Shown: piece by piece, positions 25,008 through 44,575 of the stretch
How positions within the stretch are numbered: the stretch's first letter is position 1
Layout: the number at the start of each line of letters is the position of its first letter
Source: Micromonospora sonneratiae
GTDB taxonomy: Bacteria; Actinomycetota; Actinomycetes; Mycobacteriales; Micromonosporaceae
Direction: 5' to 3'
NCBI RefSeq assembly: GCF_042679305.1
Contig: NZ_JBHTMP010000017.1
Location: 13,551 to 77,550 of the forward strand
Length of the DNA stretch: 64,000 bases
Made by a program: the position numbers and the translations under genes
Notes under the pieces: model-generated
Database searches by the model: none
Told to the model about the DNA's origin: nothing
What the model saw: only the letters and a program-made list of their open reading frames with translations

Positions 25008-26300
<1,293 letters not shown>

Positions 26301-26517: not shown

Positions 26518-27450
26518 ATGGATTCGATGACGCTGATTCGGAAGATTGCCGCTAGCCAGGACGGGACCGTCACGCTCACCCAGGCGAACGCGGCTGGTCT
26601 GACCGTTCACGAGGTGCACCGACTGTGCCGTTCCGGACGTTGGCGTCGCCTGGCCAGAGCCGGCTATCTCGTTGATGCCGACCGGTACGCGGAGATCCCG
26701 CGCCGGGTACGCATCCGGGCCGCCGTCGCGTCGTTCGGCCGGAGTGCGGCGGCGGTGCTGGACACTGCCGCAGAGCTGCACGGGATCGCGGGCACTCGGC
26801 GGACGGAGGCGATTCACGTCTCCCTGCCAGGTCCAGCCGTCCGGCCCAGCCGGGACACCGATCCAGCTGTGATCATCCATCAACTGACCATCGGTGCGGC
26901 GCAGCTCTGCGACGTGGCGGGTATCCCGGTCACTCGTCCGGTGCGTACGGTTGCCGACATCATCGTCCGCGCGGACCGTTTCACGGCCGTCTCGGTGCTC
27001 GACTCGGCGGTCAACCGCCAGGTTGTCACGGCAGAGGAGTTCGCGATGATTCCGGGGCTGATCCGTGGCCGACGTGGTGCCGTCGCCGCTCGCGGTTACC
27101 TTGCCGAGTGCGATGGACGCGCCCAGTCGCCGCTGGAGACAAGGTTGAGGCTGCGGTGTGTGGACGGCAGGGTGGCGCCTGACGTGTTGCAGCATGAGGT
27201 TCGCGACCGGGACGGCTGTCTGCTCGGCGTCGGTGATCTGGCCTGGCTGGCGGCACGCCTGATCGGGGAGGCGGATGGCCGGGAGGTGCACGGCACGCCT
27301 GAGGCCGTCTACCAGGACCGGTGGCGGCAGAACCGGATCGTCAATGCCGGTTGGCGGATTCTGCGGTTCACCTGGGACGACACGATGCGGCCGGACTACA
27401 TCCCGTTCGTCGTCCGGAATGCGCTCGCTGCCTCCCCTCTACCGCGTTGA
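26518..27450 (+). CDS. AbiEi-like wHTH N-terminus + DUF559 (Vsr-like endonuclease fold) C-terminus protein
   Basis: N-terminus LIRKIAASQDGTVTLTQANAAGLTVHEVHRLCRSGRWRRLARAGYL. C-terminus SPLETRLRL...GEADGREVHGTPEAVYQDRWRQNRIVNAGWRILRFTWDD. Start ATG 26518 or TTG 26494. The stop TGA lies inside palindromic copy 2. Confidence 0.8.
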   Translation: MDSMTLIRKIAASQDGTVTLTQANAAGLTVHEVHRLCRSGRWRRLARAGYLVDADRYAEIPRRVRIRAAVASFGRSAAAVLDTAAELHGIAGTRRTEAIHVSLPGPAVRPSRDTDPAVIIHQLTIGAAQLCDVAGIPVTRPVRTVADIIVRADRFTAVSVLDSAVNRQVVTAEEFAMIPGLIRGRRGAVAARGYLAECDGRAQSPLETRLRLRCVDGRVAPDVLQHEVRDRDGCLLGVGDLAWLAARLIGEADGREVHGTPEAVYQDRWRQNRIVNAGWRILRFTWDDTMRPDYIPFVVRNALAASPLPR

Positions 27451-30165: not shown

Positions 30166-30351
30166 CGGGCATCTCTCCTTCGACTTGTCGGCCACGGGGA
30201 CGGACTTCTCGTCCACCGGGACCCGGCTCAGCAGCGGACGGGCGCGATTGACAGAGCATGTCATGATCGCCGTGCCGATGCGGATGAGAAACGGTTTCAC
30301 CTGCTCCGAGTGGGTGCGCCGGGGGCGGGTAGCTGGGAGGGCGACGGTTCG

Positions 30352-30996
30352 ATGGGTGGGTTCGCCAGCGCGGTGCTCGACTTCCCGACCGTCGTCTTCA
30401 CGTTCCTGCTGGTGGTCGTCATCGGCTATTGGCTGCTCGTGCTGGTCGGCGTGGTCGACCTCGACGGTGACGCCGAAGCCGGCGGATCGGTGAACCTTCT
30501 GGCCGGGCTCGGGCTCGGCGGGCTTCCGGCCACAGTGGTCCTGTCACTTCTGATCGCGGTGGCGTGGTTCGTCAGCCTCGTCGGCACCGTGCTGCTCGAC
30601 ATACTCCTCGGGCTGACCGGACTCGTCCTGGTCGTGCTCTCGGTTTTCGTGCTGGTGGTGGCGCTGGTCTGCGCCTGGTCGGTCACCCGGTTGCTGGTGA
30701 TACCGCTGCGCCACCTGTTCCCGTCCAGCGCGGGCCCTTCCCGTACCGCCTTTGTCGGCAGGTTCTGTGTCATCCGTACCGGTCGGGTGACGGTCGACTT
30801 CGGCCAGGCCGAGGTGACGGCGGAGGACGGGTCGTCCGCTGTCGTCCAGGTGCGGCAGACCGGCGACGAATCCCTTGGTGCTGGCAGCACCGCCCTCATC
30901 TACGACTACGACGCTGACGGCGAGTTCTTCTGGGTCACGGCCATCGACGCCGAACTCCGCCCGGGCCACTCGCCCCATCGACCGAAGGAAATTTGA
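30352..30996 (+). CDS. YqiJ/NfeD-like membrane protein with C-terminal OB-like domain
   Basis: ATG 30352. Three or four TM helices, then RFCVIRTGRVTVDFGQAEVTAEDGSSAVVQVRQ (NfeD-type beta domain). The stop overlaps the flotillin ATG (TGATG). Confidence 0.7.
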   Translation: MGGFASAVLDFPTVVFTFLLVVVIGYWLLVLVGVVDLDGDAEAGGSVNLLAGLGLGGLPATVVLSLLIAVAWFVSLVGTVLLDILLGLTGLVLVVLSVFVLVVALVCAWSVTRLLVIPLRHLFPSSAGPSRTAFVGRFCVIRTGRVTVDFGQAEVTAEDGSSAVVQVRQTGDESLGAGSTALIYDYDADGEFFWVTAIDAELRPGHSPHRPKEI

Positions 30997-33005
30997 TGGA
31001 AGTAATCACCACCGGGCTCGGCGTTCTGTTGGGTGTCATCCTTCTTGTCGTCATCTGCATCATGTTCATCGTCAGCCGACTGTTCCGGAAGGTGGAGCAG
31101 GGCAAGGCCCTGATCATCTCCAAGGTCCGGCGGGTCGACGTGACGTTCACCGGCGCGGTGGTCCTGCCGGTGCTGCACAAGGCCGAGATCATGGACATCT
31201 CGGTGAAGACCATCGACATCGAGCGGACCGGCAACGAGGGCCTGATCTGCCGGGACAACATCCGGGCCGACATCCGGATCACCTTCTTCGTGCGGGTCAA
31301 CAAGACCACCGAGGACGTGGTCAAGGTGGCTCAGGCGATCGGTACGGCCCGGGCCAGTGACCGGGAGACCCTGCAGGAGCTGTTCAACGCGAAGTTCTCC
31401 GAGGCGCTGAAGACGGTCGGTAAGCAGCTGGACTTCGTCGACCTCTACACCAAGCGGGACGAGTTCCGCGACCGGATCATCCAGGTCATCGGCACCGACC
31501 TCAACGGTTACAGCCTTGAGGACGCCGCCATCGACTTCCTGGAGCAGACCCCGCTGGCCCAGCTCGACGCCGCCAACATCCTGGACGCGCAGGGCATTCG
31601 CAAGATCACTGAGCTGACCGCGATCGAGCACGTCCGTACCAACGAGTTCCAGCGCAACGAACAGAAGGAGATCACCCGCCAGAACGTCGACGCCCGGGAG
31701 GCCATCCTGGAGCTGGAACGCCGGCAGGCCGACGCCGAGATCAAGCAGCGCCGCGAGATCGAGACGATGCGGGCCAGGGAAGAAGCGGAGATTTCCCGGG
31801 TACGGGCCGAGGAGCGGCTCAAGGCCGAGTCGGCCGGTATCCGTACCGACGAGCAGCTCGGCGTCCAGCAGGAGAACCTGGCCCGGGAGATCGCCGTCGC
31901 GGAGAAGAACCGGGAACGGGTCATCGCGATCGAGACCGAGCGGATCGAGAAGGACCGGCTGCTGGAGGTCATCGCCCGGCAGCGGGAGACCGAACTCTCC
32001 ACCATCGCCAAGGACAAGGAGGTGGAGGCGGAGAAGCGGTCCATCGCCGAGGTGGTCCGGGAGCGGATCGCGGTGGAGAAGACGGTCGCCGAGCAGGAGG
32101 AGAACATCAAGCGCCTGCGGGTGGTCGAGGAGGCCGAGCGGACCCGGCAGGCGGTGGTGATCCAGGCCGAGGCGGAGGCGCAGGAGAACCTGGTCAAGGA
32201 CATCAAGGCCGCCGAGGCGGCCGAGCAGGCGGCCAAGCACCGGGCCCGGGAGCAGATGGTGCTGGCCGAGGCCCGCCAGCAGGCGGCCGAGTTGGAGACC
32301 CGGGCGAAGATCCGGCTGGCCGAGGGCCTACAGGCCGAGGCGGCTGCCGCAGGCCTGGCCGAGGTGCAGGTACGCGAGCGGGGTGCCGAGGCGATCGAGC
32401 GGGTCGGCCGGGCCGAGGCGATCGTCGAGCGGGAGAAGGCGCTGGCGGTGGCCGAGGCGGTACGGGAGAAGCTCAAGGGCGAGGCCGAGGGTCTGACCGA
32501 GAAGGCAGCCGCGATGGCGGCCCTCGACGACGCGACCCGTGACCACGAGGAGTACCGCCTGCGGTTGGAGGCGGAGAAGGAGATCCGCCTGGCCGGCATC
32601 GACGTGCAGCGGCAGGTCGCCGAGGCGCAGGCCAAGGTGGTGGCGGCCGGCCTGGAGAAGGCCAACATCGACATCGTCGGTGGCGACACGGTCTTCTTCG
32701 ACCGGCTGATGGGCTCGATCACGCTCGGCAAGAGCGTCGACGGTTTCGTCCAGCACTCCGACGTCGCCCAGACCCTGGCGCGGCCGTGGCTGGACGGATC
32801 CTCGAACTTCACCGACGACCTGGGCAAACTGCTCGGCGCGCTGAACACCGCCGACGTGCAGAACCTCACCGTCTCCGCGTTCCTGATGCAGCAGATCAAG
32901 GCCGGTGGGTCGAACGCGGACAAGCTGCGGGAGCTGCTGACCGCCGCGCAGCGCCTCGGTGTGGCGGAGGCGCCGGTGGCCGCCCTCACCGGCGCGAAGA
33001 AGTGA
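30996..33005 (+). CDS. Flotillin / SPFH (band-7) family protein
   Basis: N-terminal TM hairpin. SPFH core KALIISKVRRVDVTFTGAVVLPVLHKAEIMDISVKTIDIER...RADIRITFFVRV. About 270 aa of A/E/R-rich coiled coil. Flotillin C-terminus. Confidence 0.9.
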   Translation: MEVITTGLGVLLGVILLVVICIMFIVSRLFRKVEQGKALIISKVRRVDVTFTGAVVLPVLHKAEIMDISVKTIDIERTGNEGLICRDNIRADIRITFFVRVNKTTEDVVKVAQAIGTARASDRETLQELFNAKFSEALKTVGKQLDFVDLYTKRDEFRDRIIQVIGTDLNGYSLEDAAIDFLEQTPLAQLDAANILDAQGIRKITELTAIEHVRTNEFQRNEQKEITRQNVDAREAILELERRQADAEIKQRREIETMRAREEAEISRVRAEERLKAESAGIRTDEQLGVQQENLAREIAVAEKNRERVIAIETERIEKDRLLEVIARQRETELSTIAKDKEVEAEKRSIAEVVRERIAVEKTVAEQEENIKRLRVVEEAERTRQAVVIQAEAEAQENLVKDIKAAEAAEQAAKHRAREQMVLAEARQQAAELETRAKIRLAEGLQAEAAAAGLAEVQVRERGAEAIERVGRAEAIVEREKALAVAEAVREKLKGEAEGLTEKAAAMAALDDATRDHEEYRLRLEAEKEIRLAGIDVQRQVAEAQAKVVAAGLEKANIDIVGGDTVFFDRLMGSITLGKSVDGFVQHSDVAQTLARPWLDGSSNFTDDLGKLLGALNTADVQNLTVSAFLMQQIKAGGSNADKLRELLTAAQRLGVAEAPVAALTGAKK

Positions 33006-33012
33006 CGCCCGG

Positions 33013-36000
33013 GTGGCTGAGTTCGTGACCGGGTCCACCACCGTCGAATCGGGCGACCAGAACCGGACCGCCGACCAGGCGGGGATGGACGCCGGCACCT
33101 ACGACGTACTCCGGAACCGGCTGGCGGAACGCGCCACGGAGCTGGCCCGCCGGGCCGAGCAGCTCAACGCCCGACGGCTGGACGTCTTCGGCGGCACCGA
33201 GCTGCGGCTGCTCGGCACCGAGCGGATCCGTACGCAGCACAACTGCGTACCCCGCGACATCGTGTCGGTCGGCGGGCTGATGCTGTTCGGCTACAACGTG
33301 TTCATCGGGCTGAAGCCCGAGACGACGGTGGACGACGTCTTCTCGCTGCACCGGTTCACCCGCGAGGCGGCCCCGGACACCGGCGGCGGGGAGGTCTTCC
33401 GGTTCGCCGAGGTGGACCCGGTCGAGCTTCCCGAACTGCTACGTGACCAGCAGTTCGAGCGCGACTTCGGCGAACTCTACCGGTACTACCGGGAGACCCG
33501 GCTGCTGCAACTACGGCGGACCGACGGCCGGCTGCTGGCCATCTTCCAGACCGGTCCGCGTACCGAGGACATCCGGGTCCTGCGCTGGCGGGTCGACGCC
33601 GACGGGACGATCGGCTACCTCGACAACCGGGGCGAGCGCGACCACGTGTTCCCGCCCGCGCACGACTTCGAGTGGATCGAGACCACTCGTGAGGACCACG
33701 TGCTCGGTCGGCACCCGCACATCTCGATCCGGGGCGAGGTGTTCGTCGAGACGGTCGGCGGCAACCTCACCGTGAAGATCGAGAACAACACGGAGACCGG
33801 CGAGGGCATCTACGGCGAGCCGGTGGACGAGCCGCTACAGAGCCTGGCCGACGCCGACATCCACTACGCCGTCGTCGGTCCGCTGATCCTGCTCCGGATC
33901 CGGCCGTACAAGGAGACCGAGTGGCGGCACCTGGTCTTCAACACGACCACCAAGACGGTCGTACGTCTGGACGGCATCGGACAGGCCTGTCAGCGGTTGC
34001 CGGAGGACCACGGGATCATCTTCCCCGGGGGCTACTACCTGGCCACCGGGGTCAGCCGGACCTTCGACACGGTGGTCGACGACCTCGAGTTCGAGCGGGT
34101 CATCCGGTCCACCAACGGGGAGGACGTGCTCTACGTCTTCCATGCCCGCAAGGACGGTCGCAGCCTGCTGCTGCCGTACAACGTGATCCGTAAGGAGGTC
34201 GCCACCCCGGTTCCCTGCCACGGCTACTCGCTCTTCGACGACGGCACGCTGGTGGTGTTCCGGGCGACCTCCGAGGAGCCGACCCGGGTCCACCCGATGC
34301 AGATCTGGCAGACCCCGTACCTGTCCGACACCTACTCCGCCGCCCAGCCGGTCGGCAGTGGTCCGTTGGAGCGGGTCGGTAACGCAGACCTGGTACGCGG
34401 CATCTCGGACTGCCTGTCGGTGGCCCGGATGGTGGGCGAGATGACCCCGGCGGTCGGGGTGTTCGAGGCACTGATCGCCGGGTGCACCCGGGCCTTCGAC
34501 CACTACCACTGGCTCGGCGACCCGGAACTGGACGACCTGGGCGGGCCGCTGGCCGAGGTCCGGGCGATCGCGCAGCAGGTCCTGGACGAGTTCGAGAAGG
34601 TCCAGTCGCTCACCGCACAGGCAGCGGCGACCCTGGAGGAAACCGCCGCCCGGATCGCCTCCCTGGTCCGCCGGGTACGCGGCGAAGCGCCGCTGACCGC
34701 CGACGACTGGGTACGCCAACTCGCCGGGCTGCGTCAGGCGCAGGGCCAGTTGGTGACCCTGCGTGAGCTGCGGTACGTCGACGCGGCCCGGATCGACCGG
34801 CTGGCCGCCGAACTGGCCGAGGAGTTGACCGCCGCCGCCCAGCGTGCGGTCCGGTTCCTCCAGCAGGAGGACGCCTTCGCCGACTACCACGTCGAGGTCG
34901 ACCGGTTGGCCACGGCCGCCGGCGCGATCAGCACCGTGGCCGAGGCCGGGCCGGTCCGGGACCGGCTGGCCGAACAGGCCGAAGGGCTACAGATCGTCAC
35001 CGAGGTGGTGGGCAGCCTCGACATCGCCGACGCGACCGTACGGACCGGCATCCTGGAGCAGGTCGCCGAGGTGCTGGGCGGGGTCAACCGGGTCCGGGCC
35101 ACGTTGGACGGCCGTCGGGCGCAACTGCTGGCGGCAGAGGGGCGGGCCGGCTTCGCCGCCGAGTTCGCCCTGCTCGGGCAGGCGGTCACGGGTGCGCTGG
35201 CGGTGAGCGACACCGCCGAGAAGTGCGACGAGCAGCTGGGCCGGCTGCTGCTCCAGGTGGAGAACCTGGAGTCCCGCTTCGGCGAGTTCGACGACTTCCT
35301 CGCCGAGTTGGCGACCAGACGTACCGACATCTACGAGGCGTTCTCGTCGCGCAAGCAGGCACTGCTCGACGAGCGGGCGCGCCGGGCCGACCGGCTGGTG
35401 TCCTCGGCCGAGCGGATCCTGGTCAGCGTACGGCGTCGGGTCGGCGGGCTGCGTTCCCTCGACGAGGTGAACACCTACTTCGCCTCCGACCCGATGGTCA
35501 CCAAGCTGCGCGGGGTGGCCGACGAGCTGCGTACCCTGGGCGACCAGGTGCGGGCCGACGAGCTGGAGGGGCAGGTCAAGGCCGCTCGCCAGGAGGCCGG
35601 CCGGACGCTGCGTGACCGGATCGACCTCTACCGCGACGGTGGTGACACGATCCGGTTGGGCCGGCACGCCTTCGCCGTCAACACCCAGTCGATCGACGTG
35701 ACCCTGGTTCCGCACGACGGGCGGATGATGGTCGCCATCACCGGCACCGACTACCGCGCACCGGTACGGGACGAGGCGTTCGAGCAGACCCGGGCGTTCT
35801 GGGACCAGTTGCTGGTCTCCGAGTCCGCCGAGGTGTCCCGGGCGGAGTACCTGGCCACGTCGATCCTGGCCGAGGCGGAAGCCGGCACGTCGGGACTGAC
35901 CCTCGACCTGCTGCACGAGACGGCGGTCGGCCCGGCCGGGTTGCGCGACCTGGTCCGCCGCGCGGCGGAGGGGCGGTACGACGAGGGCTACGAGCGGGGT

Positions 36001-38151
36001 GTGCACGATCACGACGCGGCCCTGATCCTCGATGCCCTGCTGCGTCTGCACACCGCGGCCGGGCTGCTGCGTTATCCGCCCGGGGCGCGGGCCGCCGCCC
36101 AGCTCTTCTGGGCGTACGGCACCGGGGACACGGCCCGGGCCGGGTGGTCGAGACGGGCCGCTTCCCTGGGCCGGGCCCGTGCCCGGTTCGGCCGTACGGC
36201 CGCCGTCGGTGAACTGTGCGCGGAACTGGCCGACGCGGCTACCGCGTACCTGCGCGAGGTCGGCCTCGACGACCAGTTGACCGCCGTCGACCTGGCCGGG
36301 GAGTACCTGTTCGAGGAGCTGGCGCGGGAATCGTCGGCCGGCATGGCTGCCGGGACGCCACGCGGGTTCGTGACCGGGGCCGGGGCGCGGACGCTGCTCG
36401 ACCGGTTCCGTCGGACGCTGGGCGGGCCGCAGTCCAGGTCGACCAAGGAGTTCGACGACGACCTGCGGGCGCTCGGTGACGACCTTGCCGCCCGGCACCA
36501 GTTGGTCGTCGCCTGGCTGGAGGCCTACCTGGGCACCGTCCCGGCCGGCGCTGCCGCCGACCCGGGAGCCGGTGTCGCTGCTGATCCGGGAGCTGGCGTC
36601 GCCGCCGATCCGGGCGGTCTCTCCGCGTACGACCTGCCGGAGGCGGTCGCCATCGAGCTGTGCGGTGCCAGCCTGCCCCGGTACGAGTCGGCAGCCAACC
36701 TGTCGACGGAGGTGGGTGGGCTGTTGGCCACCCATCGGCGCATCGTCGGGTCGAACCTGACGCTGCGACTCGACGAGACCCTGGCCCGGACCCGACGGTT
36801 CCGCAACGAGCAGGTGCCGGCCTACCGGGCCTACCAGCAGCGCCGTAACGAACTGGTGGCCCGCGAACGGCAGCGGTTGCGGCTGGAGGAGCACCAGCCG
36901 AAGGTGATGAGCGCCTTCGTCCGTAACCGGCTGCTGGACGAGGTCTACCTGCCGTTGATCGGTGACAACCTGGCCCGGCAACTCGGCGCGGTGGGTGACG
37001 GCAAGCGGGTGGACCAGATGGGTCTGCTCCTGCTGATCTCGCCACCCGGCTACGGCAAGACGACCCTGATGGAGTACGTCGCCAGCCGGCTCGGCCTGGT
37101 GTTCGTCAAGGTCAACGGTCCGGCACTGGGCTCGGCCGTCACCTCGCTGGATCCGGCCGAGGCGCCCAACGCGACCGCCCGCCAGGAGGTCGAGAAGATC
37201 TCGTTCGCGCTGGAGGCGGGCAGCAACGTGCTGCTCTACCTGGACGACATCCAGCACACCTCGCCCGAGCTGTTGCAGAAGTTCATCTCGCTGTGCGACG
37301 GGCAGCGTCGGATGGAGGGGGTGTGGGACGGCCGCACCCGCACGTACGACCTGCGGGGCAAGCGGTTCGCCGTGTGCATGGCCGGCAACCCGTACACCGA
37401 GTCGGGGCAGCGCTTCCGGGTGCCGGACATGCTGGCCAACCGGGCCGACGTGTGGAATCTCGGTGACGTGCTCGCCGGGCGGGACGAGATCTTCGCGTTG
37501 AGCTACGTCGAGAACGCGCTCACCGCCAACCAGGTGCTGGCCCCGCTGTCCACGAGGGAACGCGGCGACGTGGAGCTGCTGGTCCGGCTGGCCCGGGGCG
37601 ACGAGACGGTACGGGCGGACCAGTTGAGTCACCCGTACTCGCCGGTCGAGTTGGAGCAGATCGTCTCCGTACTGCGCAAGCTGCTGCGGGTCCAGCAGGT
37701 GGTGCTGACCAACAACCAGGCGTACATCGCGTCGGCCGCGCAGTCGGACGCGTCCCGTACCGAACCGCCGTTCCAGTTGCAGGGCTCCTACCGGAACATG
37801 AACAAGCTGGCGGAGCGGATCGTCCCGGTGATGAACGACGAGGAACTCGAGATGGTGATCGACGACCACTACCGGGGCGAGGCGCAGACCCTGGCCTCGG
37901 GGGCCGAGGCGAACCTGCTCAAGCTGGCTGAGTTGCGTGGCCGGCTCACCGCCGAGCAGGCCCGCAGGTGGGCCGAGGTGAAGGCCGGTTACCTGCGGGC
38001 CCGGGCGCTCGGCGGGGACCGGGACGATCCGGTGAGTCGTGCGGTCGGGGCACTCGGCCTGTTGGCCGACCGGGTCGGCGACGTGGAGTCGGCGATCCAG
38101 CAGGTGGGTGCCGGGGTACGCCGGGTCGAGGTGGGCGGAGCGGCCGGGTGA
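33013..38151 (+). CDS. Giant (~1710 aa) protein: beta-rich N-terminal domain, long helical region, C-terminal AAA+ ATPase
   Basis: Starts 8 nt after the flotillin stop (GTG 33013; alternatives GTG 33025 and ATG 33085). Walker A LLLISPPGYGKTTL (~aa 1343). Walker B VLLYLDDIQH (~aa 1407). AVCMAGNP sensor-1-like. High GC3 throughout. Confidence 0.85.
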   Translation: MAEFVTGSTTVESGDQNRTADQAGMDAGTYDVLRNRLAERATELARRAEQLNARRLDVFGGTELRLLGTERIRTQHNCVPRDIVSVGGLMLFGYNVFIGLKPETTVDDVFSLHRFTREAAPDTGGGEVFRFAEVDPVELPELLRDQQFERDFGELYRYYRETRLLQLRRTDGRLLAIFQTGPRTEDIRVLRWRVDADGTIGYLDNRGERDHVFPPAHDFEWIETTREDHVLGRHPHISIRGEVFVETVGGNLTVKIENNTETGEGIYGEPVDEPLQSLADADIHYAVVGPLILLRIRPYKETEWRHLVFNTTTKTVVRLDGIGQACQRLPEDHGIIFPGGYYLATGVSRTFDTVVDDLEFERVIRSTNGEDVLYVFHARKDGRSLLLPYNVIRKEVATPVPCHGYSLFDDGTLVVFRATSEEPTRVHPMQIWQTPYLSDTYSAAQPVGSGPLERVGNADLVRGISDCLSVARMVGEMTPAVGVFEALIAGCTRAFDHYHWLGDPELDDLGGPLAEVRAIAQQVLDEFEKVQSLTAQAAATLEETAARIASLVRRVRGEAPLTADDWVRQLAGLRQAQGQLVTLRELRYVDAARIDRLAAELAEELTAAAQRAVRFLQQEDAFADYHVEVDRLATAAGAISTVAEAGPVRDRLAEQAEGLQIVTEVVGSLDIADATVRTGILEQVAEVLGGVNRVRATLDGRRAQLLAAEGRAGFAAEFALLGQAVTGALAVSDTAEKCDEQLGRLLLQVENLESRFGEFDDFLAELATRRTDIYEAFSSRKQALLDERARRADRLVSSAERILVSVRRRVGGLRSLDEVNTYFASDPMVTKLRGVADELRTLGDQVRADELEGQVKAARQEAGRTLRDRIDLYRDGGDTIRLGRHAFAVNTQSIDVTLVPHDGRMMVAITGTDYRAPVRDEAFEQTRAFWDQLLVSESAEVSRAEYLATSILAEAEAGTSGLTLDLLHETAVGPAGLRDLVRRAAEGRYDEGYERGVHDHDAALILDALLRLHTAAGLLRYPPGARAAAQLFWAYGTGDTARAGWSRRAASLGRARARFGRTAAVGELCAELADAATAYLREVGLDDQLTAVDLAGEYLFEELARESSAGMAAGTPRGFVTGAGARTLLDRFRRTLGGPQSRSTKEFDDDLRALGDDLAARHQLVVAWLEAYLGTVPAGAAADPGAGVAADPGAGVAADPGGLSAYDLPEAVAIELCGASLPRYESAANLSTEVGGLLATHRRIVGSNLTLRLDETLARTRRFRNEQVPAYRAYQQRRNELVARERQRLRLEEHQPKVMSAFVRNRLLDEVYLPLIGDNLARQLGAVGDGKRVDQMGLLLLISPPGYGKTTLMEYVASRLGLVFVKVNGPALGSAVTSLDPAEAPNATARQEVEKISFALEAGSNVLLYLDDIQHTSPELLQKFISLCDGQRRMEGVWDGRTRTYDLRGKRFAVCMAGNPYTESGQRFRVPDMLANRADVWNLGDVLAGRDEIFALSYVENALTANQVLAPLSTRERGDVELLVRLARGDETVRADQLSHPYSPVELEQIVSVLRKLLRVQQVVLTNNQAYIASAAQSDASRTEPPFQLQGSYRNMNKLAERIVPVMNDEELEMVIDDHYRGEAQTLASGAEANLLKLAELRGRLTAEQARRWAEVKAGYLRARALGGDRDDPVSRAVGALGLLADRVGDVESAIQQVGAGVRRVEVGGAAG

Positions 38152-43264: not shown

Positions 43265-44575
43265 TCACCGGGACTGGCTGACCGGCACCGTCCCGAGCGG
43301 CACCGTCCCGACCGGCACCGGCGAGTCGGCCGGGGCCGGGTCCAGCAGTGGCCCTCTCACCGACTTGTCCTCGGCCGTGGGGCCGTGGGAGGTGAGCACC
43401 ACCGGGCAGGCCAGCTCGTCCTCGACCGTGGCGACCCAGTCGCGGGGTGGTTCGTCGTACCCGGGTCGGGAGCGCAGCAGTCGACCGGTCAGCGCGGCCT
43501 GCCGGTCCAGGTCCCCGACCGGACCCGGTGCGAGCCGGTCCGTCCAGTCGTAGCGGCGACAGATCCGTAGCTGCGGACCGGCCAGGTCCAGGTGCGTCAG
43601 CGCCAGTCCGTCCACACCGCCGGCCACCTCCAGCGCGTACCGGTGGGCCACCGCGTCGAAGTGCCCGAACCGGAACCGGCCCTGCCACGGGTTGGTCGGG
43701 TTGCGCGGGTCGGCGAACGGCAGGGTCGGGTCCTCGGTCACCAGTGGCCCGGGACCGTGCCGGGTGGTGGCGGTACGCAGCACGCCGAGTCGGGTCGCCG
43801 TACCCGACATGCCGGCCTCCGCCAGCAGCCGCTCGGCGTTGGTGAACGTCGTCGTGCTCCACGTGGTGTACGGGTGGAAGCCGTGCCACTCGTCCAGCAG
43901 CACGCCCTGGGCGCCCTCGAAGACACAGGTCCCGGACCGCAGCAGCGTCGTCAGGTGATTGCCATCCACTATGGACACGCGCTCGGCGAAGGCGGTGAAG
44001 GCGGTGACACAGTCGTCCACCGGTGGGGCGTCCAGCGGGCCGAGTTCGGCGGTGAGCCGGTCACGCAGCGCGGCCAGCCGCTGGCGCAGCACGGCAGGCG
44101 TGACGCAGTCGCCCACCCGGGGTGCCTCGCCGGGGTACGCGAGGTCGTACGCCATCGTCTCGCCCACCCCCATGCCGCAGGAGCCGTGCCGGTCGGCTCC
44201 CCGGGCGACCTCGCGGGCCCGGTTCGCGGCCCGGTGGTACGGCGTGGTCAGCAGCGCCGCCCCGTCCACGGTGAGCCGGTCGAGCGCGTCCGGCACCCCG
44301 ACGGCGGCGAGGTGGTCGGCCTCGACGGCCAGCGCCAGCGGGTCGACCACCATGAACCGGGACAGGTGGGTTCGCACACCGGGTCGGAACGTGCCCGCTC
44401 CGAACTGCGCGAAGGTGTGCCAGCGGCCGTCGGGCAGGACGACGTTGTGCGCCGCCTGCCCGCCCCCGTTGAAGCGGACCACCGCGTGGACCGGCCGTGT
44501 CGCACACAGCCAGTCCACGACGGTGCCCTTGCCGGCGTCCCCGTACCCGAGGTCGACCACGATCACATGGCTCAC
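43265..44575 (-). CDS. Divergent adenylosuccinate-synthetase-family paralogue
   Basis: GTG 44575 overlaps the vWA stop (GTGA). DLGYGDAGKGTVVD (P-loop), GGGQAAHNV, SCGMGVGETM, LTHLDLAG align with the purA motifs in this window but are substituted. Confidence 0.85.
   Translation of the reverse strand: MSHVIVVDLGYGDAGKGTVVDWLCATRPVHAVVRFNGGGQAAHNVVLPDGRWHTFAQFGAGTFRPGVRTHLSRFMVVDPLALAVEADHLAAVGVPDALDRLTVDGAALLTTPYHRAANRAREVARGADRHGSCGMGVGETMAYDLAYPGEAPRVGDCVTPAVLRQRLAALRDRLTAELGPLDAPPVDDCVTAFTAFAERVSIVDGNHLTTLLRSGTCVFEGAQGVLLDEWHGFHPYTTWSTTTFTNAERLLAEAGMSGTATRLGVLRTATTRHGPGPLVTEDPTLPFADPRNPTNPWQGRFRFGHFDAVAHRYALEVAGGVDGLALTHLDLAGPQLRICRRYDWTDRLAPGPVGDLDRQAALTGRLLRSRPGYDEPPRDWVATVEDELACPVVLTSHGPTAEDKSVRGPLLDPAPADSPVPVGTVPLGTVPVSQSR

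What the first reader, a model, noticed from the sequence alone, without database searches (positions are those of the whole stretch)
30352..38151. NfeD-like / flotillin / giant AAA+ three-gene operon
Three plus-strand genes are packed with a TGATG overlap (30994-30998) and an 8-nt gap (33006-33012). They encode a YqiJ/NfeD-like membrane protein, a 670-aa flotillin and a ~1710-aa AAA+ protein. NfeD-flotillin pairs are well known. A tightly coupled giant ATPase as a third partner has no described function that I know of. It suggests an energy-driven machine operating at flotillin membrane microdomains, for example in membrane repair or remodelling, cargo extraction or a conflict system.
Basis: partly seen in the sequence, partly recalled or inferred. 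Interest (0 to 1): 0.75.

Follow-up and report, generated by a model that had tools for sequence, protein, structure and literature searches.

The report
Flotillin operon with giant ATPase partner
Three tightly packed genes of Micromonospora sonneratiae encode a YqiJ/NfeD-like membrane protein, a flotillin and a 1712-residue MoxR-type AAA+ ATPase; they stay together in at least ten bacterial phyla, which suggests that some bacterial flotillins have an unstudied ATP-driven partner.

Summary
Three plus-strand genes sit between opposite-strand neighbours: g1 30352-30996, g2 30996-33005 and g3 33013-38151. g1 and g2 share a TGATG overlap. The g2-g3 gap is 7 nt, not 8.

- g1 is YqiJ-like (hhalign 96% against E. 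coli YqiJ).
- g2 is a YqiK-type flotillin (30% identity over 454 aa, E 1e-37).

In 138 of 140 loci with upstream DNA, a g2 homologue lies upstream of g3 on the same strand, usually adjacent. These loci span at least ten phyla. g1 is present in about 87%.

About 19 loci also carry PspA/IM30 next to the module. There is no vWA partner, effector domain, PADLOC match or phage copy. I found no paper on this link.

Best reading (inferred): a cytoplasmic AAA+ machine that remodels or works through the flotillin assembly during membrane stress. It is a new variant of the known NfeD-flotillin operon. Function is untested.

The parts
30352..30996 (+). g1: YqiJ/NfeD-like inner-membrane protein, 214 aa. 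It has 3-4 hydrophobic segments, an acidic Gly/Asp loop, and a C-terminal region that aligns with the C-terminal part of E. coli YqiJ; an OB-like fold there is inferred, not modelled.
   Evidence: Translation; hydropathy. An 18-member family alignment (A3) against E. coli YqiJ gives hhalign probability 96.4%, E 1e-9, over 139 columns. 6 of 18 members hit Pfam YqiJ_N (PF21001). This protein has no Pfam or NCBIfam hit of its own.
30994..30998 (+). TGATG stop/start overlap of g1 and g2, which suggests translational coupling.
   Evidence: Read directly.
30996..33005 (+). g2: YqiK-type (SPFH2) flotillin, 669 aa.
   Evidence: BLASTP against E. coli YqiK gives 30% identity over 454 aa, E 1e-37. Close homologues carry PF01145 and are named flotillin family or YqiK.
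30996..31097 (+). g2 N-terminal membrane anchor (aa 1-34). It is followed by a basic stretch (SRLFRKVEQGK), so the rest of the protein is inferred to be cytoplasmic.
   Evidence: Hydropathy; sequence. The positive-inside rule is inference.
31098..31685 (+). g2 SPFH/Band-7 domain (about aa 35-230), the most conserved part, with an invariant Cys85.
   Evidence: Aligned to the SPFH region of YqiK; conservation in the 31-member alignment A6.
31686..32615 (+). g2 Glu/Ala/Arg-rich region (about aa 231-540), inferred to be the flotillin coiled coil.
   Evidence: Composition E 20%, A 19%, R 13%; aligned to YqiK up to about aa 458. No coiled-coil prediction was run.
32616..33002 (+). g2 C-terminal region (aa 541-669) with the conserved IDIVGGD motif. 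It is not aligned to YqiK by BLAST and is a candidate docking surface (inferred).
33013..38151 (+). g3: 1712-aa cytoplasmic DUF3686 / MoxR-type AAA+ protein, named 'DNA repair ATPase' in public records.
   Evidence: Pfam; 100% match to the M. sonneratiae protein; no hydrophobic segment.
33139..34509 (+). g3 DUF3686 region (aa 43-499): a long helix and helical bundle flanking a divergent beta-propeller.
34870..35121 (+). g3 DUF7902 (aa 620-703), function unknown.
   Evidence: PF25472 E 5.6e-30.
35590..36102 (+). g3 conserved middle block (aa about 860-1030) with invariant polar residues: LGRHAFAVN, SESxxVxRAEYLA, and Y-x-EGY-x-x-G-V-H-D-x-D-A (H998, D999, D1001). No known domain matches it.
   Evidence: no Pfam or PDB match. 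Not modelled.
36544..36614 (+). 24-nt x 3 tandem repeat encoding GAGVAADP x 3, inside the least conserved part of g3.
   Evidence: sequence; regional conservation.
36883..37692 (+). g3 AAA+ core (aa 1291-1560). It carries Walker A SPPGYGKTT (37039-37065), Walker B LLYLDD (37231-37248), NP...LANRAD with N1459 and R1477, and a beta-hairpin before the sensor-1 strand.
37693..38148 (+). g3 C-terminal helical lid and extension.
   Evidence: Model. Conservation 0.72 for aa 1561-1660 and 0.35 for the tail.

Best explanation
This is a conserved, self-contained three-gene module.

- g1 is a YqiJ/NfeD-like membrane protein.
- g2 is a flotillin, anchored by one N-terminal helix, with its SPFH domain, coiled coil and C-terminal region in the cytoplasm.
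- g3 is a soluble giant. I infer that it forms a ring through its single MoxR-type AAA+ domain and reaches out with N-terminal beta-propeller arms.

Most likely mechanism (inferred): the flotillin forms its usual oligomeric cage or patch on the inner face of the membrane together with g1. g3 docks on it and uses ATP to assemble, open or dismantle the flotillin scaffold, or to load or extract client proteins held there. The physiological setting would be membrane stress or repair, in some lineages together with PspA/IM30.

Shown here:
- gene order, coupling and deep co-conservation;
- homology of g1 and g2;
- the fold class of g3's N-terminal (aa 1-528) and C-terminal (aa 1271-1712) parts;
- conserved ATPase motifs;
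- absence of transmembrane, vWA, protease, nuclease or effector domains.

Inferred: physical contact, hexamer formation, the remodelling activity and the stress role.
For: 1. Linkage. A g2 homologue is upstream of g3 on the same strand in 138 of 140 loci with enough upstream DNA, usually directly adjacent. A few loci have 0.75-2.3 kb or inserted genes between g2 and g3 (L088, L131, L138, L169, L171). g1 is present in 111 of 128 loci, plus 5 of 5 later ones. The loci named by organism cover Actinomycetota, Myxococcota, Acidobacteriota, Bacillota (a Clostridia MAG), Pseudomonadota, Bacteroidota, Deinococcota, Verrucomicrobiota and Planctomycetota. The protein list adds Sumerlaeia.
2. Coupling in the window: a TGATG overlap and a 7-nt gap.
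3. Co-inheritance. Pairwise identity matrices over 110 loci correlate at r = 0.93 (g2-g3) and 0.89 (g1-g3).
4. No other neighbour is conserved beyond lineage synteny, so the module is self-contained.
5. PspA/IM30 lies next to the module in 17 of the scanned loci (15 on the same strand). It is also present on pQBR103 within a yjf-like PspA cluster and divergently in a Verrucomicrobiota genome.
6. The ATPase motifs are at least 97% conserved, and the AAA+ core is the best conserved region. Activity therefore appears to be under selection.
7. g3 has no transmembrane segment. The bulk of g2 is inferred to be cytoplasmic, so the two would share a compartment.
8. Precedent from established knowledge: SPFH cages house AAA+ machines (HflK/C-FtsH), and in B. 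subtilis the SPFH protein YdjI recruits PspA to the membrane (PMC8581546, cited).
Against: - No direct evidence of interaction, co-transcription or ATPase activity.
- Two loci have g3 without g1 or g2 nearby (L083 Aureibacter; L090). g3 can therefore exist alone, or work with partners encoded elsewhere.
- 14 Streptomyces loci and one Polyangiaceae locus lack a detectable g1.
- Canonical MoxR ATPases work with vWA partners, which are absent here.
- Walker B is DD rather than DE.
- No aromatic residue is evident between Walker A and Walker B, where classical AAA+ unfoldases carry their pore-loop aromatic (reading). Threading-type unfolding is therefore not assured.
- About 800 residues of g3, including an invariant HD-containing motif, are unexplained and could carry a different activity.
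- The correlation is confounded by species phylogeny.
- An ECF sigma-E-type envelope-stress promoter motif is not enriched upstream.
Confidence: 0.55

Rival explanations
1. The module is a conflict (anti-phage or abortive-infection) system. The flotillin/YqiJ pair would be a membrane sensor or effector. The MoxR-type ATPase with its beta-propeller would be the regulated switch, by analogy with the MoxR-centred ternary conflict systems.
For: - MoxR AAA+ proteins, beta-propellers and Band7-like domains all occur in the MoxR-vWA ternary conflict systems of Kaur et al. 2020 (PMC7159879).
- The family shows a wide phyletic spread across at least ten phyla.
- It occurs on megaplasmids: pQBR103, Deinococcus, Hymenobacter and Streptomyces plasmids.
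- The Vibrio alginolyticus locus lies among HipA/HTH, TelA, RNA-ligase/kinase and IS605 genes.
Against: - No PADLOC model matches g1 or g2. g3 gives only P-loop-level hits to IetA (E 0.0014).
- No vWA partner and no recognisable effector domain.
- No copy in 50,697 phage records.
- Conservation is very high: 70-80% identity over 1700 aa across actinomycete genera of several families. That is unlike fast-diversifying defence genes.
- Flanks in 8 of 9 gene-called loci are metabolic or housekeeping genes.
- No variable cargo sits next to the core.
Confidence: 0.17
2. g3 is a DNA repair ATPase, as public records name it, and its position next to the flotillin genes has no functional meaning.
For: Only the inherited name: the Pfam DUF3686 description 'ATPase involved in DNA repair' and the NCBI name 'DNA repair ATPase'. 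There are weak P-loop-level matches to RuvB.
Against: - No DNA-binding, nuclease or helicase domain was found. The RuvB matches cover about 45 residues around Walker A and fall far below the cut-offs (19 bits against 282).
- The best structural relatives are MoxR-type chaperone-like ATPases, not DNA enzymes.
- The gene is almost always (138 of 140 loci) preceded by two membrane-protein genes.
- No paper supports the name.
Confidence: 0.03
3. g3 does not act on the flotillin itself. It uses the flotillin patch only as a membrane landing pad for another job. Examples would be maturation or insertion of a membrane protein complex (as MoxR proteins do for NorQ/CbbQ clients), or an enzymatic activity residing in the unexplained middle region.
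For: - The MoxR-type fold; known MoxR proteins mature other complexes (established knowledge).
- An invariant polar block with a GVHDxDA motif in the middle region and no domain match.
- Two loci have g3 alone.
Against: No conserved client gene lies next to the module. The only invariant partner is the flotillin. No vWA adaptor is present.
Confidence: 0.22

Closest known systems
yqiJ-yqiK (E. coli) and yuaF-floT (B. subtilis): NfeD2-SPFH2 flotillin operons (Hinderhofer et al. 2009, PMC2636767)
   Same: Same first two genes in the same order. A YqiJ/NfeD-like polytopic membrane protein is followed by a flotillin with an N-terminal anchor, an SPFH domain and an EA-rich coiled coil.
   Different: The E. 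coli operon ends after yqiK. Here a 1712-aa DUF3686/AAA+ gene follows in 138 of 140 loci. The word 'ATPase' does not occur in the 2009 survey. The g2 C-terminal roughly 200 residues are not aligned to YqiK.
HflK/C-FtsH (and prohibitin-m-AAA) SPFH cage plus AAA+ machine
   Same: An SPFH-family scaffold paired with an AAA+ ATPase at the membrane. This is the functional analogy I consider closest (established knowledge; Ma et al. 2022 as cited).
   Different: FtsH is membrane-anchored, belongs to the classical AAA clade and carries an M41 protease. The HflK/C cage is periplasmic. g3 is soluble, MoxR-type and has no protease domain. The g2 scaffold is inferred to be cytoplasmic.
MoxR-family AAA+ ATPases (CbbQ, NorQ, RavA)
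   Different: MoxR proteins are about 250-500 aa and work with a vWA/MIDAS partner (CbbO, NorD, ViaA). g3 is 1712 aa with a beta-propeller and long helical regions. No vWA domain occurs in the module.
MoxR-vWA ternary conflict systems (Kaur, Burroughs, Iyer, Aravind 2020, PMC7159879)
   Same: They combine a MoxR ATPase with beta-propeller or Band7-like superstructure-forming domains.
   Different: They are defined by a vWA co-chaperone and variable effector domains, and they diversify quickly. All three features are absent here.
pspA-ydjGHI of B. subtilis (PspA recruited by the SPFH protein YdjI; Scholz et al. 2021, PMC8581546)
   Same: PspA/IM30 is encoded next to an SPFH protein and small membrane partners. 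The same juxtaposition is seen in about 19 of the loci here.
   Different: That operon has no giant ATPase. YdjI is a different SPFH subfamily. PspA is absent from the Micromonospora window unit.

Membership tests
NfeD2/YqiJ-SPFH2 flotillin operon | Flotillin-type SPFH protein: N-terminal membrane anchor, SPFH/Band-7 domain, long EA-rich coiled coil | tested here: met
   Anchor aa 1-34 and EA/R-rich 230-540. 30% identity over 454 aa to E. coli YqiK, E 1e-37. Close homologues carry PF01145. The protein itself is below Pfam thresholds.
NfeD2/YqiJ-SPFH2 flotillin operon | Upstream gene encodes a polytopic membrane protein with a C-terminal NfeD/YqiJ-type domain | tested here: met
   hhalign of the family alignment against E. 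coli YqiJ gives 96.4%, E 1e-9, over 139 columns including the C-terminal domain. 6 of 18 members hit PF21001 YqiJ_N. The OB fold itself was not modelled.
NfeD2/YqiJ-SPFH2 flotillin operon | The two genes are adjacent on the same strand | tested here: met
   TGATG overlap in the window. The order is conserved in 111 of 128 loci plus 5 of 5 later ones.
Pfam DUF3686 (PF12458) proteins | Match to the family model above the gathering score | tested here: met
   E 2.9e-222, 738 bits against a cut-off of 25, covering the full model 1-448.
MoxR-type AAA+ (helix-2-insert / pre-sensor-1 hairpin superclade) | AAA+ core with intact Walker A, Walker B, sensor 1 and arginine finger | tested here: met
   SPPGYGKTT, LLYLDD (DD rather than DE), N1459 and R1477, all at least 97% conserved.
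MoxR-type AAA+ (helix-2-insert / pre-sensor-1 hairpin superclade) | Closest structural relatives are MoxR, midasin or dynein modules rather than classical AAA | tested here: met
MoxR-type AAA+ (helix-2-insert / pre-sensor-1 hairpin superclade) | Pre-sensor-1 beta-hairpin and helix-2 insert | tested here: inconclusive
   The model shows a hairpin (model residues 163-176, aa 1433-1446) before the sensor-1 strand. A conserved 14-residue loop (VTSLDP) sits where the helix-2 insert would be, but not as a hairpin. I did not superpose it residue by residue.
MoxR-type AAA+ (canonical MoxR systems) | vWA/MIDAS partner protein encoded alongside | tested here: not met
   No vWA hit in g1, g2, g3 or g3 sub-segments. 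No conserved extra neighbour.
HflK/C-FtsH type SPFH-AAA+ protease complex | The AAA+ partner is membrane-anchored and carries a protease domain | tested here: not met
   g3 has no hydrophobic segment and no peptidase domain.
HflK/C-FtsH type SPFH-AAA+ protease complex | SPFH proteins form a closed cage that encloses the ATPase | not testable with these tools
   No multimer modelling or imaging was available.
MoxR-vWA ternary conflict systems | vWA co-chaperone plus variable effector domains and rapid diversification | tested here: not met
   No vWA or effector domain. 70-80% identity across actinomycete genera of several families. No variable cargo.
Known anti-phage defence systems (PADLOC-DB 2.0) | Significant match of the components to a defence-system model | tested here: not met
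   g1 and g2 have no hits. g3 has only IetA P-loop matches at E 0.0014 and 0.007.
DNA repair ATPases | DNA-binding, helicase or nuclease module, or homology to a characterised repair ATPase beyond the P-loop | tested here: not met
   Only matches of about 45 residues around Walker A to RuvB, far below the cut-offs.

The most novel reading that the evidence does not exclude
DUF3686 proteins are the missing energy source of a widespread bacterial membrane-remodelling machine. In this reading a hexameric MoxR-type ATPase with beta-propeller arms drives assembly and disassembly of cytoplasmic flotillin cages, in some lineages together with PspA (the ESCRT-III homologue). That would be a bacterial counterpart of the 'scaffold plus dedicated AAA+ recycler' logic of ESCRT-III/Vps4. 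It would give bacterial flotillins a defined, ATP-dependent mechanism for the first time.
Probability: 0.35. Interest if true: 0.85.

Novelty: new variant of a known kind. Interest (0 to 1): 0.68.

Why it matters
What bacterial flotillins actually do is still debated. The studied models (E. coli YqiK, B. subtilis FloT/FloA) have no enzymatic partner to experiment on.

A large subfamily of YqiK-type flotillins is almost always followed by one specific giant ATPase. The subfamily is found in Streptomyces and other antibiotic producers, myxobacteria, vibrios, Proteus, Bacteroidota, Planctomycetota and the Pseudomonas megaplasmid pQBR103.

That ATPase offers a direct experimental handle:
- Walker mutants;
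- foci dynamics;
- pull-downs;
- cryo-ET of a machine that would exceed 1 MDa if g3 forms a hexamer (six 1712-residue chains).

It also corrects a misleading public name, 'DNA repair ATPase', that has been propagated to thousands of proteins. Finally, it links SPFH scaffolds, PspA and MoxR-type AAA+ proteins in one genomic context.

Tried and rejected
1. Apparent g2-g3 gene fusion in Glycomyces (L055). Rejected: g2 ends at TAA 7890-7892, a hairpin follows, and g3 starts at ATG 7975. The long ORF was a high-GC off-frame artefact.
2. Envelope-stress ECF (sigma-E-type) promoter GAAC-N16-18-CGT upstream of g1. Found in 5 of 62 loci against 2.4 +/- 1.5 in shuffles, so not enriched.
3. Conserved TTGAC...TGTCAyGATC motif upstream of g1 in Micromonosporaceae, considered as an operator. 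More likely it is the true start (M-T/A-x-x-V-N) of the divergent MFS gene, in frame with the called gene.
4. Consensus promoter and terminator scan inside the unit. Nothing informative.
5. Profile searches of the whole protein and of the conserved middle block against PDB sequences and Pfam. Only P-loop matches or noise.
6. AFDB fold search. The library was not available, so eukaryotic or differently built DUF3686 relatives were not examined.
7. Phage collection. No hit.
8. PADLOC. No meaningful hit.
9. Literature. DUF3686, PF12458, 'DNA repair ATPase' + flotillin, MoxR + flotillin, SPFH + anti-phage and others gave nothing on this link.
10. Search for any further conserved neighbour. None beyond lineage synteny and PspA.

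Full report
**Observation**

The window comes from Micromonospora sonneratiae: the g3 product is 100% identical to that species' protein. It is about 70% G+C.

ORF listing, junction sequences and translations confirm three plus-strand genes:
- g1: ATG 30352 to TGA 30996, 214 aa.
- g2: ATG 30996 to TGA 33005, 669 aa.
- g3: GTG 33013 to TGA 38151, 1712 aa.

The TGATG overlap at 30994-30998 is real. The g2-g3 gap is 7 nt (33006-33012), not 8.

The public gene call starts g1 42 nt earlier. An alignment of 13 related upstream regions has its only invariant columns at the TG of the ATG at 30352, preceded by a mostly purine-rich GGAG-like stretch.

The neighbours on both sides are on the minus strand: an MFS transporter upstream and an Oxidored_FMN gene downstream. 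The unit is therefore exactly three genes.

**What the three proteins are**

g1 has no Pfam or NCBIfam hit of its own, even at E <= 10. It has 3-4 hydrophobic segments.
- An alignment of 18 diverse family members matches E. coli YqiJ with hhalign probability 96.4%, E 1e-9, over 139 columns. The match runs from the second membrane segment through the C-terminal domain.
- Six of the 18 members hit Pfam YqiJ_N.
- YqiJ is the NfeD2-type partner of the flotillin YqiK (PMC2636767).

g2 also misses the Pfam Band_7 threshold.
- It is 30% identical to E. coli YqiK over 454 residues (E 1e-37). The aligned part covers the anchor, the SPFH domain and the EA-rich region.
- Its close homologues carry PF01145 and are named flotillin family or YqiK.
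- It has one N-terminal hydrophobic anchor followed by basic residues, and a 310-residue region with 20% Glu, 19% Ala and 13% Arg.
- The C-terminal roughly 200 residues are not aligned to YqiK. They do contain a family-wide IDIVGGD motif.

g3 has four parts.
- PF12458 DUF3686 at aa 43-499 (E 2.9e-222).
- PF25472 DUF7902 at aa 620-703.
- A weak AAA/AAA_5 match at aa 1339-1463.
- No hydrophobic segment anywhere.

The ATPase motifs are at least 97% conserved over 110 loci. They are Walker A SPPGYGKTT, Walker B LLYLDD, N1459 and R1477. The AAA+ core is the best conserved region of the protein.

Residues 500-1290 match nothing except DUF7902, and there is no vWA domain. This stretch contains an unexplained block of invariant polar residues that includes GVHDxDA.

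No solved structure shares more than the P-loop with g3. The public name 'DNA repair ATPase' has no support that I could find.

**The decisive test: co-occurrence**

The family is large. There are 1410 clusters at 50% identity for aa 1-1200.

I collected four sets of loci:
- 80 genome loci close to the query;
- 80 metagenome loci chosen to be close to a distant Vibrio member, at 29-36% identity to it;
- individual look-ups of distant representatives;
- plasmid records.

A g2 homologue lies upstream of g3 on the same strand in 133 of 135 loci with at least 2.3 kb of upstream DNA. The same holds in all five later loci, giving 138 of 140. In most loci the two genes are directly adjacent. A few have 0.75-2.3 kb or inserted genes between them (L088, L131, L138, L169, L171).

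g1 is detectable in 111 of 128 loci. It is missing mainly in 14 Streptomyces loci.

The taxa are:
- many actinomycete families;
- Myxococcota, Acidobacteriota and a Clostridia MAG;
- Vibrio, Proteus, Halomonas, Photobacterium and the Pseudomonas megaplasmid pQBR103;
- Niabella, Hymenobacter and Dysgonomonas (Bacteroidota);
- Deinococcus, Verrucomicrobiota and Planctomycetota.

Sumerlaeia appears in the protein list.

The two exceptions are Aureibacter (a singleton whose nearest relative is only 36% identical) and metagenome locus L090.

Pairwise identities of g2 and g3 correlate at r = 0.93 over 110 loci. This fits inheritance as a unit, although species phylogeny contributes to the figure.

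No further gene is conserved next to the module, with one exception. A PspA/IM30 gene sits immediately upstream of g1 in 17 loci. It is part of the same plus-strand run on pQBR103 and lies divergently adjacent in a Verrucomicrobiota genome.

**Mechanism**

What is shown:
- a self-contained, deeply conserved module of a YqiJ-like protein, a flotillin and a soluble MoxR-type AAA+ giant;
- ATPase motifs under strong selection;
- a protein-interaction-type propeller at the far end of g3;
- recurrent linkage to the membrane-repair protein PspA.

What I infer: g2 builds its usual oligomeric scaffold on the cytoplasmic face with g1. g3 forms a ring and docks on it through its N-terminal arms. ATP hydrolysis then remodels the scaffold or moves clients in or out, as part of a membrane-stress response.

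The closest functional analogy is HflK/C-FtsH, an SPFH cage plus an AAA+ machine. The closest family for genes 1-2 is yqiJK/yuaF-floT. The closest fold for the motor is MoxR.

The module fails the defining features of canonical MoxR systems because it has no vWA partner. It also fails those of FtsH-type complexes, having no membrane anchor and no protease.

**Rivals**

A conflict or defence role is possible.
- For: MoxR, propeller and Band7-like domains occur in the ternary conflict systems of PMC7159879. The module is on megaplasmids. The Vibrio locus looks island-like.
- Against: there is no PADLOC match, no vWA or effector and no phage copy. Conservation is very high. Eight of nine gene-called flanks are housekeeping.

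A second rival is that g3 uses the flotillin only as a landing pad for another activity. This stays open because about 800 residues of g3 are unexplained.

'DNA repair' rests on the name alone.

**Novelty**

Ten full-text searches found no paper mentioning DUF3686 or PF12458, or linking a giant or MoxR-type ATPase to flotillin operons. The 2009 survey of SPFH operons does not contain the word ATPase. The library lacks most subscription journals, so prior mention elsewhere cannot be excluded.

I file this as a new variant of a known kind: the NfeD-flotillin operon extended by a conserved, uncharacterised AAA+ partner.

**Dead ends**

- An apparent g2-g3 fusion in Glycomyces was an off-frame ORF artefact.
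- An ECF-type promoter motif is not enriched upstream of g1.
- A conserved upstream motif is probably the start of the divergent MFS gene.
- The AFDB fold library was unavailable.

Noticed in passing
window 30248-30268 (minus-strand ATG at 30264-30262): A motif TTGAC-N8-9-TGTCAyGATC is conserved upstream of g1 in Micromonosporaceae. Read on the minus strand it encodes M-T/A-x-x-V-N, in frame with the divergent MFS gene. That gene probably starts at 30264 rather than at the called 30165. This leaves only about 87 nt between the two divergent starts.
   Followed up: partly
L084 3815-4540; L167 1-404; L169 995-1750; 16 further loci listed: A PspA/IM30 gene lies next to the g1-g2-g3 module in about 19 loci from Bacteroidota-like metagenomes, pQBR103 and a Verrucomicrobiota genome. 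On pQBR103 it is part of a yjf-like cluster (rhomboid, DUF2491, DUF350, DUF1190, glutathionylspermidine-synthase-like). In L169 a separate 559-aa AAA protein sits beside PspA.
   Followed up: partly
window 35590-36102 (g3 aa ~860-1030): A block of invariant polar residues (LGRHAFAVN, SESxxVxRAEYLA, GVHDxDA with H998/D999/D1001) has no Pfam or PDB match. It may be a catalytic or metal site, or an interface.
   Followed up: partly
window 36544-36614: A 24-nt tandem repeat, three copies, encodes GAGVAADP x 3 in the least conserved part of g3.
   Followed up: no
window 26518-27450: A 310-aa AbiEi_4/AbiEi_1-type (antitoxin-like regulator) gene is wedged between purA (adenylosuccinate synthase) and purD (GARS) upstream of the unit.
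   Followed up: no
window 25011-26300 and about 43265-44575 (minus strand): Two adenylosuccinate-synthase (PF00709) genes lie within about 18 kb. The second sits in a minus-strand run that includes a NUDIX/NrtR-type gene two genes further on.
   Followed up: no
L055 7893-7974: In Glycomyces mayteni a perfect GC-rich hairpin (GGGGTTCGTCTCCGATCGGAGACGAACCCCGG) sits between the g2 stop and the g3 start. It may be an attenuator that sets a flotillin:ATPase ratio. Many Streptomyces loci also appear to have roughly 80-120 nt there, by approximate tblastn-based estimates.
   Followed up: no
L171 4673-5902: In Dysgonomonas macrotermitis two genes are inserted between the flotillin and the giant ATPase gene: a Peptidase_M54 (archaemetzincin-like, 209 aa) and a 184-aa ORF.
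   Followed up: no
L082 1-5232 and 13192-20821: The Vibrio alginolyticus copy lies among an IS605 TnpB, RNA ligase, HD/KTI12/AAA_33 kinase-like and R2K ATP-grasp genes, HTH_3-HipA, TelA, and NUDIX/NAPRTase NAD-salvage genes. This island-like context is unlike the other loci.
   Followed up: no
L035, L040, L042, L047, L050, L051, L059-L061, L063, L070, L071, L073, L079 (Streptomyces) and L078: These loci keep g2-g3 but have no detectable g1 within about 5 kb upstream, even with a family HMM. The YqiJ-like partner appears dispensable or replaced in part of Streptomyces.
   Followed up: partly
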